Positions 12,430-15,414 of a stretch of 64,000 nt of DNA are shown here, piece after piece. Source of the DNA: the human T2T-CHM13v2.0 reference genome, Homo sapiens. How positions within the stretch are numbered: the stretch's first letter is position 1; each line of letters starts with the position of its first letter. A program made the position numbers and the translations under genes. The notes beneath the pieces were generated by a model. The model worked only from the letters and a program-made list of their open reading frames with translations. It did no database searches and had not been told where the DNA came from. Where the stretch lies: assembly GCF_009914755.1 (NCBI RefSeq), contig NC_060930.1. The stretch is one strand, 5' to 3'.

Positions 12430-12573
12430 GCCCCAAGAGAAATTCTGGGAATAAAGAGTTCCACAGGCAAAGTTTAGGTAACAGTCCACACCACAGCACT
12501 CCCTAGAAATCCACATTATGTATTCACGTATTGAAGGATCGCAAAAGTCCTTTGGTAGGAAAACCTACGTAAC
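12430..12573. mobile_element. hAT MITE left part (same family as 640-860, opposite orientation); apparent continuation at ~15095-15225
   Basis: 12507-12573 aligns to the reverse complement of ~740-815. Confidence 0.5.
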
Positions 12574-12924
12574 TTTTTTTTTTAATTTGTTTTGGTTTAA
12601 ACTTTTATTGCCAACCTTGAAAAGCAACATATTAACCAGTTATCTTGTGATAAGAGGACAACTTGCCATTTTTCTTAGAATCTAGTAGGCAGTCCTGCGG
12701 CCCTAAAGCATGTGGGAGTGGCTTTTTGCTCACTTGGCTGTACCCCTCAATGGGAGGAAGCAATGGAAAGAAACGTTTAGCTTACAAACACATCAGGACC
12801 TCAAATTAAGTTGTTGAGCCACTTGATATTCTTTAACAAAGTAAGTACTGATCTTATCAATCTTCCCACACTGCCTCACGCCCTCCCATCTAGGTCACTA
12901 AAAAATTATATATATATATATATT

Positions 12925-13413
12925 TTAGACGGAGTTTTGCTCTTGTCACCCAGGCTGGAGTGCAATGGTGCAATCTTAGCTTACTGCAACCTCCACCTCC
13001 TGGGTTCAAGCAATTCTCCTGCCTCAGCCTCCCAAGTTGCCGGGATTACAGGCACCACCACGCTGGGCTGATTTTTTGGTTTGTTTTTTGTTGTTGTTGT
13101 TGTTGTTGTTTGTTTGTTTGTTTGTTTGTTTTGAGATGGAGTCTTGCTCTGTCACCCAGGCTGGAGCACATTCGCAAAATCCTGGCTTGCTGCAACATCC
13201 GCCTCCAGGGTTCAAGCAATTCCCCTGTCTCAGCCTCCCAAGTAGCTGGGACTACAGGTACCCGCCACCATGCTCGGCTCATTTTTGTATTTTTAGTAGA
13301 GATGGGGTTTCACCATGTTGGCCAGGCTTGTCTCGAACTCCTGACCTCAGGTGATCCACCCACCTTGGCATCCCAAAGTGCTGGGATTACAGGCATGAGC
13401 CACCACACCTGGC
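12925..13413 (-). mobile_element. Alu right-arm monomer (12925-13075) plus full AluS with (TTG)n(TTTG)n tail (13078-13413), in the L1PB1 tail
   Basis: Alu consensus sequence; (TA)n/A-rich flanks. Confidence 0.88.
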
Positions 13414-13424
13414 TGAAAAATATA

Positions 13425-14069
13425 TTTTTTTAATTTTTTATTTCCGTAGGTTTTGGGGGAACAGATGGCATTTGGTTACATGAGTAAGTTCTTTAGTGGT
13501 GATTTGTGAGATTTTGGTGCATCCATCACGGGAGCAGTATACACTGAACCCAATTTGTAGTATTTTATCCCTCACCCACCTCCCACCCTTTCCCCTGAGT
13601 CCCCAAAGTCCATTGTATCATTCTTATGCCTTTGCATCTTCATAGCTTAGCTCCCACTTATGAGTAAGAACATACGATATTTGGTTTACCATTCCTGAGT
13701 TACTTCACTTAGAATAATCGTCTCCAGTTCCATCCAGGTTGCTACAAATGCCATTAATTTGTTCCTTTTTATAGCTGAGTAGTATTCCATTATATATACA
13801 TACCATAATTTCTTTATTGACTCGTTTCCTGATGGGCATTTGGGCTGGTTTCATGTTTTTACAATTGCGAATTGTGCTGCTATAAACATGCGTGTGCAAG
13901 TATCTTTTTTGTATAATAACTTCTTTTTCTCTGGCTAGATACCCAGTAATGGGATTGCTGGATCAAATGGTAGTCTACTTTTAGTTCTTTAAGGAATCTC
14001 CACACTGTTATCCATAGTGATTGTACTAGTTTACATTCCCACCAGCAGTGTAGAAATGTTTCCTTTTCT
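13425..14069 (-). mobile_element. L1PB1-like 3' end, 5'-truncated
   Basis: tttggttacatgagtaagttctttagtggtgatttgtgagattttggtgc 3'UTR signature followed by ORF2 C-terminal sequence. Confidence 0.85.
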
Positions 14070-15414
14070 AGTGTTCCAAGGTTCCCACACAAGGAATTCT
14101 TGAATTTGGAACAGGGACCTGGATTGTAGTCCTGATTAAGCACTTGTTGGTGCTGGTCTTCCCCACGCCCAGATAACCATGCATCATAATACTGGTGGCA
14201 TGTTTTTCCCAGGCCAAGGTAGGGAAATTGTACATCCCAACATGGGTAGGGTAACCATGTATCACATATGTATGACAAGTTGTTCTGTTCCCAAGCCCAG
14301 GTAGGGTAATCACACACCCCAACAAGGGTGACATACTATCCCAGCATAATCATTCATTGTGAACCTTGCACTCTCAAAAGCATCCTGGTTTGGGTGATAA
14401 ATTACATAGTCACTTAGTTATAAGCCCTCCACCTATAGACTTCATTATATCCAGTTCCTAAATCAAACCAAACCACCCTAACAAGAGTAGAATCTAGAAT
14501 TAACAATTTTCCCATTATACAGAATGTTGTTTTTCTGGACTCCAGGCCACTGTGTGCCAGCCATAGTTATTTCCTAACTTCCACCATATTGATCCAGTCG
14601 ATGCGACAGGACGTGTGCCTGAGACTCTTGTTCTATTCTTTAGGGTCCCATTGGAGCTAAACGCAGCCATAAGTTCAGACTGAGTTTGCCATAAATCCCT
14701 GCCATTGTTCCCTCGTGTGCTTCTGGCTACTTGATAGGGCCCTGCTCCCAATAGACTGTTCGAAACTATGACATTATCACTAACACTTGAGTGTAACACA
14801 TCACATCTGAAACCTACAATGATGGTACCCATCTCCTCTTTACCCCCTCAGGACTGGAGTTCCCTACACACTGGCACTAGACACATTCCTAGTTCCTAAA
14901 GATTAAATGGCTTACTTCCCCCACAATGACTATAGCCACATGGGTTATGAGGCCAGATAACTACCGGTGTGACCTTTATCAACCACCCCTCATTATGAAT
15001 CTCAGTTAACTCATCTCTGAAATGAACTGGCTGGTCTGTATGGCATCCAACATTCCACCCAGCTGTGATGAATTGACTCTATGTACCCTTTTTTGAAACT
15101 TAACTACTTCCACATAAGGCCTCACTTCCCAAATATCTCTTAAAAGTGGGGTCTCTTTCCATATATTTTTTAAATCTCCTTCAGAACATGGTAGAGAACC
15201 TTGAACATGGTTGGAACTCAAATGTATGTCACATAAGGATTTTTAAATGAGTGAGGCATTTAAGCCTAAAAAAAATCAAAATTAGACTTTGAGATGATGG
15301 GAAATTAAATAAATCTAAGAAGTGAAATGATCTGGTCAAAGCAGCAAGCACTATAGAAAAATAAATTCATATCATTTTCTAGCACTATGACTAGTGAACT
15401 AGCACTGCCAATAA

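What the first reader, a model, noticed from the sequence alone, without database searches (positions are those of the whole stretch)
12559..15109. L1-style retrocopy architecture of an unrecognised polyadenylated RNA
Independent of the protein call, the segment looks like a target-primed retrocopy. It has a degraded poly(A) (T10 at 12574-12583 plus ttgttttggttt) with AATAAA (12604-12609, minus) just upstream. About 320 bp plus 1030 bp of non-repetitive sequence rejoin across the L1 (…ggaacactag|tgacctag…). Possible decayed TSDs are gaaaacctacgtaactt (12559-12575) and gaaacttaactactt (15095-15109). No gag/pol or paired LTRs are visible, so it would be an mRNA copy rather than a provirus, the route by which bornavirus-like elements entered genomes.
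Basis: partly seen in the sequence, partly recalled or inferred. Interest (0 to 1): 0.78.

Follow-up and report, generated by a model that had tools for sequence, protein, structure and literature searches.

The report
L1 insertion with transduced GSTA-flank DNA
This stretch of a PKHD1 intron is an old, truncated L1 jumping-gene copy that most likely dragged about 320 bases of DNA from beside the glutathione-transferase (GSTA) genes along with it, an ordinary and well-known kind of event rather than a copy of an unknown or viral RNA.

Summary
AATAAA lies at 12604-12609 on the minus strand, followed by an A-rich tail at 12574-12589. Only about 320 bp (12590-12909, minus) belongs to it.

That piece has 7 relatives in the human genome, all 0.74-0.89 Mb away. 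Each lies 3-5 kb downstream of a GST-alpha gene or pseudogene, on the opposite strand, at 74-86% identity. Homology stops about 15 nt after AATAAA, where the window has its tail. At the 5' end it runs straight into the 7-A tail of a 5'-truncated L1 3' fragment (13432-14069, minus). Two Alu pieces landed in that junction later.

The L1 is 6.4% off the majority of its relatives. The piece has a branch length of 0.081 and a distance of 0.14-0.16 to its closest relatives. The two ages fit a single event.

Best reading is a partnered L1 3' transduction (about 0.55). The main rival is a separate small retrocopy inserted in the L1 tail (about 0.25).

Its proposed TSDs are no better than chance. No ORF there matches a protein family.

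This is ordinary and of low interest.

The parts
12574..12589 (-). Non-templated A-rich tail (AAATTAAAAAAAAAA on the minus strand), the second poly(A) tail
   Evidence: Read directly. All 7 relatives continue here with a different sequence that is conserved among themselves. The flank beyond shows no homology (DN tests p 0.255-0.855; 'dn' profile gives no hit at 11800-12590).
12604..12609 (-). Polyadenylation signal AATAAA, about 15 nt before the end of homology
   Evidence: The hexamer is present as AATAAA in L010, L012 and L013 and as ATTAAA in L011. It is the 1 of 96 minus-strand signals in the window that is followed by an A run.
12590..12909 (-). Piece copied from the 3' flank of a GST-alpha gene unit, the transduced sequence
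   Evidence: 7 relatives on chr6 at 52.58-52.73 Mb, 74-86% identity; a profile built from the 7 relatives hits 12898-12591 (minus) at E 3.5e-89 and nothing else in the window at E of 1 or less; the piece nests within the type-A relatives. Bases 12899-12909 (TAATTTTTTAG) match the relatives' TATTTTTCTAG (read by eye).
12910..13413 (-). Later Alu block: one right arm with an AT-rich tail (12924-13068) and one two-armed Alu (13131-13413), inserted in the junction
   Evidence: SRP/Alu-like arms on the minus strand. The block is flanked by ...TATATTTTTCAG at 13413-13424 and ...TAATTTTTTAG at 12899-12909. The alignment scores 12, and 141 of 2000 shuffles reach that score because the sequence is low-complexity.
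13414..13431 (-). Junction: 7 A after the L1 end, then TATATTTTTCA. This is the 5' copy of the Alu target duplication and matches the relatives' AAAAATATTTTTCT
   Evidence: In 29 related L1 copies the element ends ...CCTATGGAAATAAAAAATT followed by A/T-rich tails. In the window that end is followed by only 7 A.
13432..14069 (-). 5'-truncated L1 3' fragment (end of ORF2 plus 3' UTR) with its own AATAAA
   Evidence: 39 scored relatives, 87-89% identity. (40 of 627 sites differ from the majority of 29 relatives). (sequence beyond 14069 matches none of the relatives' upstream L1 sequence).
14070..15109 (.). Not part of the insertion: resident PKHD1 intron sequence holding a MITE-like repeat (core 14337-14422) and a local tandem duplication
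   Evidence: 10 non-self hits, all confined to query 688-773; no homology to the GSTA-flank loci; the repeat is 60-85 bp long in 7 other loci.

Best explanation
This is a partnered L1 3' transduction.

Proposed sequence of events:
1. A full-length L1 once sat in the A/T-rich site (TTT/AAAAATATTTTTC) 3-5 kb downstream of a type-A GST-alpha gene unit, antisense to the gene.
2. Its transcript read through the weak L1 poly(A) signal. It was cleaved about 15 nt after the next AATAAA, some 320 nt downstream.
3. That RNA was reverse-transcribed by target-primed reverse transcription into this PKHD1 intron, 0.74 Mb away, and was 5'-truncated to 638 nt of L1.
4. The product is: L1 3' end, 7 A, 320 bp of GSTA flank, new poly(A). 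Alu elements later landed in the A/T-rich junction.

Shown here: the anatomy, the origin of the 320 bp, both homology boundaries, and compatible ages.

Inferred: the source L1, read-through as the cause, and the single-event history.
For: 1. Origin. The 320 bp has exactly 7 relatives, all in the GST-alpha cluster. The cluster is identified by GST_N and GST_C_3 exon hits, by exon-7 peptides, and by a PDB match to GSTA1 at E 3.3e-21. The relatives lie on the strand opposite to the genes.

2. Direction of copying. In the tree the window copy nests inside the type-A relatives, sister to L011 with support 86. The A/B split is deeper (K2P 0.24-0.32). So the cluster is the donor.

3. 3' boundary. Homology ends about 15 nt after AATAAA and an A-rich tail follows. 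The 7 relatives stay alignable with each other beyond that point.

4. 5' boundary. Homology runs into the 7-A tail of an L1 3' end of the same orientation, with no foreign bases between.

5. No homology beyond either boundary. Profiles of 1.2 kb upstream and downstream of the 7 relatives give no hit at 14070-15109 minus or at 11800-12590.

6. Ages agree. The L1 is 40 of 627 (6.4%) off the majority of 29 relatives. Twice that is about 13%. The observed divergence to the closest relatives is 12-14%, and the window branch is 0.081.

7. The mechanism is documented. Passages read in PMC13009371 say that about 25% of L1 insertions carry 3' transductions, that a signal lies 10-30 bp before the endpoint in 274 of 349 cases, and that 'proxy' truncated L1s with transduced sequence exist whose source is absent from the reference.
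Against: - No L1 lies upstream of the piece in any of the 7 extant relatives, 0 of 7 within 1.5 kb.
- No target-site duplication flanks the composite 12574-14069. The best alignment of the flanks scores 5, and 1897 of 2000 shuffles reach that.
- No sibling insertion with the same transduced sequence exists in the genome.
- The junction is A/T-rich, so the exact 5' limit of homology cannot be fixed to the base.
- The age estimates carry large errors (about 0.016 on the 0.081 branch). The L1 set was chosen by similarity to this copy, so 6.4% is a lower bound.
Confidence: 0.55

Rival explanations
1. Two separate events at a hot spot. The truncated L1 inserted first. Later a polyadenylated RNA transcribed from the GSTA flank, from an unannotated transcript antisense to the GST genes, was reverse-transcribed into the TT/AAAAAAA site of the L1 tail in the same orientation. 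The Alus did the same afterwards.
For: - The L1 end ...AAAAAATT followed by AAAAAAA is a perfect L1-endonuclease-type site (the site preference is recalled).
- At least two Alu pieces of the same orientation also landed here, so the spot was reused.
- No source L1 exists at any of the 7 relatives.
- A TSD made only of A would be invisible, which would explain the failed TSD search.
- AAATTAAAAAAA occurs both at the L1 end and in the second tail.
Against: - It needs an otherwise unknown polyadenylated germ-line transcript from intergenic DNA.
- It needs that transcript's 5' truncation to fall exactly at the A run that merges with the L1 tail.
- The piece is not younger than the L1: 12-14% divergence to the closest relative against 2 x 6.4%.
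Confidence: 0.25
2. Template-switch chimera. During one reverse-transcription event the L1 enzyme copied a polyadenylated RNA from the GSTA flank, then jumped to the poly(A) end of an L1 RNA and copied 638 nt of it.
For: It gives the same direct junction, the same orientation and the same single age. It needs no source L1 at the GSTA loci. Chimeric retrocopies of this kind are described in the literature (recalled, not read here).
Against: As far as I recall, it is much rarer than 3' transduction. It still needs the unknown flank transcript. The described chimeras usually carry a small nuclear RNA as the 5' part (recalled). No TSD was found.
Confidence: 0.07
3. One retrocopy of about 1.35 kb of an unknown polyadenylated RNA spans 12574 to about 15094 and was later split by the L1/Alu block.
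For: - The tail and signal are real.
- A 12-of-15 T-run match (15079-15094 against 12565-12580) could be a decayed TSD (132 of 2000 shuffles).
- The paralogues carry TTTTTCTAG just before the piece. This looks like a splice acceptor, so an upstream exon could lie elsewhere.
Against: - The right 1 kb has no relative in the genome apart from a MITE-like core, and none in 1.2 kb upstream of the 7 relatives.
- The window copy keeps the pyrimidine tract before the AG (TAATTTTTTAG against TATTTTTCTAG), so the piece is not bounded by splicing.
- The L1 would have had to land exactly where the homology ends.
- The TSD-like match is what chance gives: 96 of 6382 windows reach it, at 2 places in 3.9 kb.
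Confidence: 0.05
4. DNA-level duplication of a 320-bp fragment of the GSTA cluster into the PKHD1 intron. The A run and the neighbouring L1 would be coincidences.
For: Donor and copy lie 0.74 Mb apart on the same chromosome arm. No TSD was found.
Against: One boundary falls about 15 nt after a poly(A) signal and is followed by a non-templated A-rich tail. Only 1 of 96 signals in the window has such a run, and the window holds 18 long A/T runs in 64 kb. The other boundary falls at an L1 tail.
Confidence: 0.03

Closest known systems
Partnered L1 3' transduction (L1 read-through into flanking DNA; passages read in PMC13009371; the founding papers are recalled, not read)
   Same: A truncated L1 3' end, a short A tract, unique non-L1 DNA whose origin lies elsewhere in the genome, a signal about 15 nt before the end, a second poly(A) tail, and one orientation throughout.
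   Different: No source L1 lies at any extant donor locus and no TSD is detectable. The donor is a member of a tandem gene-cluster repeat, so the exact donor unit cannot be named.
'Proxy' elements: truncated reference L1s with transduced sequence whose source L1 is absent from the reference (PMC13009371, passage read)
   Same: A truncated L1 plus a transduced tag is present while the source element is absent from the assembly.
   Different: Those are young human-specific elements with active polymorphic sources. This one is about 6% diverged and long dead.
Processed pseudogene or mRNA retrocopy, including virus-derived ones such as bornavirus-like elements
   Same: Made by the L1 machinery, with a poly(A) tail after a signal.
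   Different: There is no parent gene, no intron loss and no coding similarity. The copied piece is colinear with unspliced intergenic DNA.
Chimeric retrocopies by reverse-transcriptase template switching (recalled)
   Same: Two unrelated RNA-derived parts are joined head to tail in one orientation.
   Different: The order and the parts here (an L1 3' end as the 5' part) are what read-through gives without any switch.

Membership tests
L1 3' transduction (partnered) | L1 3' end directly upstream of the non-L1 piece, same orientation, only the L1's own A tract between them | tested here: met
   The L1 end ...GGAAATAAAAAATT is followed by 7 A and then sequence homologous to the GSTA flank. The Alu block between them is bounded by a duplicated ...ATTTTT(C/T)AG.
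L1 3' transduction (partnered) | The non-L1 piece is derived from a locus elsewhere in the genome | tested here: met
   (7 relatives at chr6 52.58-52.73 Mb). (the window copy nests within them).
L1 3' transduction (partnered) | The piece ends 10-30 nt after a poly(A) signal and is followed by a new poly(A) tail | tested here: met
L1 3' transduction (partnered) | A source L1 lies immediately upstream of the donor sequence | tested here: not met
   0 of 7 relatives have L1 sequence within 1.5 kb upstream. An unfixed or lost source is a known outcome (PMC13009371 passage), so this lowers the claim but does not exclude it.
L1 3' transduction (partnered) | Target-site duplications flank the whole composite | tested here: inconclusive
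   best flank alignment scores 5, reached by 1897 of 2000 shuffles. A short, A-only or eroded TSD could not be seen by this test.
L1 3' transduction (partnered) | The L1 part and the transduced part have the same age | tested here: met
   (6.4% off the majority). (window branch 0.081; 12-14% divergence to the closest relatives). Compatible within wide errors.
   the right 1 kb has no parent; the left piece is colinear with unspliced genomic DNA, including the pyrimidine tract before the AG.
   (292 of 2000 shuffles reach the score). (the best nearby match is at chance frequency).
Endogenous viral element from a viral mRNA (bornavirus-like) | Similarity of an encoded frame to a viral protein | tested here: not met
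   0 of 12 ORFs reach a Pfam cut-off, with two weak non-viral hits at E 0.08-0.1; the 110-aa ORF matches only itself in the genome. No search of a viral protein collection was run.

The most novel reading that the evidence does not exclude
The 320-nt piece is the 3' end of a real, unannotated polyadenylated transcript that runs antisense and convergent to the GST-alpha genes. It would be kept in all seven units with its AATAAA, preceded by an acceptor-like TTTTTCTAG. The PKHD1-intron copy would then be its only retrocopy, a fossil record that this transcript was expressed in the germ line of early anthropoids.
Probability: 0.2. Interest if true: 0.25.

Novelty: new member of a known kind. Interest (0 to 1): 0.1.

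Why it matters
It matters little beyond bookkeeping.

- It explains an unannotated, retrocopy-looking stretch of a disease-gene intron as a routine L1 event.
- It removes the suggestion of an unknown or virus-like RNA.
- It gives a dated tag (about 6% divergence) that links one GSTA-cluster unit to an insertion 0.74 Mb away. That tag could help order the duplications of the GSTA cluster.
- The insertion lies in sense orientation in PKHD1 and carries an intact AATAAA. No listed transcript uses it, according to the hub's gene table.

Tried and rejected
- Parent gene for the right half. A whole-genome DNA search gave only 10 short hits to a 60-85 bp repeat. A protein-level search with the 110-aa ORF gave only the ORF itself.
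- GSTA mRNA processed pseudogene. Rejected because the relatives lie 3-5 kb beyond exon 7 and on the opposite strand.
- Spliced terminal exon. Rejected because the copy keeps the tract before the AG.
- Hidden homology upstream of the L1.
  - Local alignments gave two low values, L010 p 0.005 and L011 p 0.03, both from one exact 12-13-nt word. The other 12 of 14 tests gave p 0.255-0.855.
  - Profiles of the 7 relatives then found nothing there, so I treat the word as chance.
- The right half as older L1 sequence. Rejected: no match to the upstream L1 parts of 29 relatives.
- Using split flanking repeats to prove an insertion. Both outer flanks are unique in the genome, so no such test is possible.
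- Rfam. Only Alu/SRP-like and Alu-derived miRNA-family matches, all below gathering scores.
- Earlier findings of the scan were not open.
- Literature. 0 papers hold PKHD1, GSTA and retrotransposition together. One search on transduction listed 2 papers. I read passages of one and only the listing of the other (PMC6425141).
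Full report
**What is there**

All positions in this section are read on the minus strand, 5' to 3'. PKHD1 is on the minus strand too, so everything below is in sense orientation in its intron.
- 15109 to 14070: sequence with no L1 or Alu similarity.
- 14069 to 13432: an L1 3' fragment.
- 13431 to 13425: seven A.
- 13424 to 13414: TATATTTTTCA.
- 13413 to about 13076: a two-armed Alu with its tail.
- About 13075 to 12924: a single Alu right arm, followed by an AT-rich stretch.
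- 12909 to 12590: about 320 bp of non-repeat sequence.
- 12609 to 12604: AATAAA.
- 12589 to 12574: an A-rich tail (AAATTAAAAAAAAAA).

Rfam sees the three Alu arms as SRP-like matches on the minus strand, all below the gathering score.

The L1 fragment had 9503 first-look candidates in the genome. 40 were scored, and the 39 non-self hits are 87-89% identical over the full 629 bases. The sequence beyond 14069 matches none of the upstream L1 sequence of 29 relatives. So the L1 is truly 5'-truncated there.

The T10 run and the AATAAA are at the stated coordinates. The pairing is unusual. Of 96 minus-strand AATAAA/ATTAAA hexamers in the window, this is the only one followed within 45 nt by a run of 8 or more A. 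The window has 18 runs of A or T of 10 or more.

The proposed TSDs do not hold.
- The two strings give a best local alignment of 7 of 8 (score 6), reached by 292 of 2000 shuffles.
- A better match including the T run (12565-12580 against 15079-15094, 12 of 15) scores 10 with a 28-nt probe.
- That score is reached by 96 of 6382 windows across the 64 kb, and at two places within 12640-16500.
- Without the T run the score is 6, reached by 1642 of 6382 windows.

**Origin of the left piece**

A whole-genome search with 12540-12898 (minus) found 8 candidates: itself and 7 others. All 7 are on the same chromosome at 52.58-52.73 Mb, on the plus strand, at 86, 85, 82, 80, 76, 76 and 74% identity.

That region is the GST-alpha cluster.
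- GST_N and GST_C_3 exon matches lie on the minus strand beside each of the 7.
- Exon-7 translations end in the alpha-class C-terminus.
- One of these translations matches PDB GSTA1 chains at E 3.3e-21.

The elements lie about 3-4 kb beyond the stop codon in the two units where exon 7 was located. They lie 2.9-5.8 kb below the GST_C_3 exon in all seven. They are on the strand opposite to the genes, so the piece is not GSTA mRNA.

The elements fall into two types, A (L010-L013) and B (L014-L016), which alternate along the cluster.

**Boundaries**

In the alignment of the window copy with the 7 relatives, homology ends about 15 nt after AATAAA.
- The relatives then continue with a sequence well conserved among themselves.
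- The window has its A-rich tail and then unrelated DNA.

At the other end the relatives read ...TTTAAAA(A/G)TATTTTTCT(A/G)G TGACC....
- The window reads TAATTTTTTAG TGACC next to the Alu block.
- On the far side of the Alu block it reads AAAAAAATATATTTTTCAG.
- These two strings look like the target duplication of the Alu block. The alignment scores 12, and 141 of 2000 shuffles reach it, because the sequence is low-complexity.

With the Alus removed, the GSTA-flank homology runs directly into the seven A that follow the L1 end. Related L1 copies end ...CCTATGGAAATAAAAAATT followed by A/T-rich tails, so the window L1 has its normal terminus.

**No homology beyond the boundaries**

- BLAST of 12000-15600 against the 7 loci with 1.5-kb flanks found the element in 7 of 7, L1 in 0 of 7, and Alu in 1 of 7.
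- Local alignments of the 300 nt on either side against the relatives' flanks gave 12 of 14 tests at p 0.255-0.855. Two were low (L010 0.005, L011 0.03), both from one exact 12-13-nt word.
- Profile HMMs built from 1.2 kb upstream, the core, and 1.2 kb downstream of the 7 relatives were run over the whole window.
  - The core profile hit 12898-12591 (minus) at E 3.5e-89.
  - The upstream profile hit only Alu copies.
  - The downstream profile hit only other repeats far away.
  - Neither flank profile hit anything at 14070-15109 minus or at 11800-12590.
- I therefore treat the short word as chance.

**Direction and age**

Over the core, the window copy is 88, 86, 84 and 83% identical to the type-A relatives and 75-77% identical to type B. 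A maximum-likelihood tree puts it inside type A, next to L011, with support 86 for that split. The branches are 0.081 for the window and 0.080 for L011. The A/B split is deeper. So the window copy descends from a type-A unit of the cluster, not the reverse, and it is not an independent member of some dispersed repeat family.

The L1 fragment differs from the majority state of 29 relatives at 40 of 627 sites, 6.4%. The range over the 30 copies is 5.7-9.4%. The relatives were chosen for similarity to this copy, so 6.4% is a lower bound.

Twice 6.4% is about 13%, which is the divergence seen between the piece and its closest relatives. The L1 and the piece are therefore compatible with one age. 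By commonly quoted neutral rates (recalled) that age is tens of millions of years, within primates.

**Mechanism**

The anatomy is that of a partnered L1 3' transduction: a truncated L1 3' end, a short A tract, unique DNA from elsewhere, a signal, and a second tail.

Passages of PMC13009371 describe exactly this.
- Read-through of the L1 signal occurs, with termination 10-30 bp after the next signal.
- 274 of 349 endpoints had such a signal.
- 'Partnered' events keep L1 sequence.
- 'Proxy' elements have a source that is missing from the reference.

The donor site TTT/AAAAAT is the kind of site the L1 endonuclease prefers (recalled).

Evidence against:
- 0 of 7 extant relatives have an L1 at that site.
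- No TSD flanks the composite: score 5, reached by 1897 of 2000 shuffles.
- There is no sibling insertion.

An unfixed or lost source, or a lost cluster unit, would explain the first point. Age, or an A-only duplication, would explain the second.

**Rivals**

- Two separate events. The L1 tail (TT followed by AAAAAAA) is itself a preferred target, and Alus of the same orientation landed there. A separate small retrocopy of a polyadenylated flank transcript could have done the same. This needs an unknown transcript and a truncation point that happens to merge with the tail. The piece is also not younger than the L1.
- A template-switch chimera gives the same picture and is rarer (recalled).
- A DNA-level copy does not explain both boundaries.

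**The right half**

14070-15109 is best read as resident intron.
- Its only repeated part is a 60-85-bp MITE-like core at 14337-14422. It has 10 scored relatives on other chromosomes at 77-87% identity.
- It also holds a short local duplication.
- 12 ORFs of the region gave 0 Pfam matches above cut-off, with two weak hits at E 0.08-0.1 for one ORF.
- The 110-aa ORF at 14518-14847 (minus) matches only itself in the genome.
- The outer flanks 12200-12573 and 15079-15450 are unique. So no split repeat is available to prove where the insertion begins.

**Verdict**

There is a real retroposition signature, but it covers about 1.5 kb (12574-14069) made of an L1 fragment, later Alus, and 320 bp of GSTA-flank DNA. 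It is an ordinary L1-mediated event. Nothing points to a viral or unknown RNA. A search for papers holding PKHD1, GSTA and retrotransposition together found none. This instance is probably simply unremarked. The decisive test is the orthologous site in other primates and mammals, which could not be run with the genomes held here.

Noticed in passing
window 14337-14422 (core), probably about 14240-14425 in all: A MITE-like short repeat with inverted ends (...GGTGACCATA ... TATGGTCAC... in other copies). It has 10 scored relatives on other chromosomes at 77-87% identity over 47-78 bp, and the relatives share only 60-85 bp with each other. I could not name the family with the tools here.
   Followed up: partly
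window 14206-14247 and 14288-14329: A local tandem duplication with a period of about 82 bp and 81% identity over 42 bp, just upstream of the MITE-like core. It may be a duplicated end of that repeat.
   Followed up: no
G000 chr6 52.58-52.74 Mb (loci L010-L022): The GST-alpha cluster shows an alternating A-B-A-B-A-B-A pattern of the flank element (A at 52.585, 52.627, 52.667 and 52.733 Mb; B at 52.602, 52.6425 and 52.6855 Mb). B copies are 93-96% alike and A copies 83-93% alike. This fits repeated duplication of an A+B pair. Each element keeps an AATAAA-like hexamer on the strand antisense to the GST genes, and a GTAAGT donor-like motif on the sense strand in its most conserved block.
   Followed up: partly
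window 14940-15060: By eye this stretch resembles the core of a MIR element (recalled consensus, not tested).
   Followed up: no
window 12574-14069, minus strand: The whole composite lies in sense orientation within the PKHD1 intron and carries two AATAAA hexamers, one at the L1 end and one at 12604-12609. The hub's table lists no transcript ending here.
   Followed up: no
window 54434-54940, 44674-44832 and 45137-45385: The profile built from the 1.2 kb downstream of the GSTA-flank elements hits these places in the window (E 2e-21 to 4e-9). Presumably this is a dispersed repeat shared by both regions. It was not identified.
   Followed up: no
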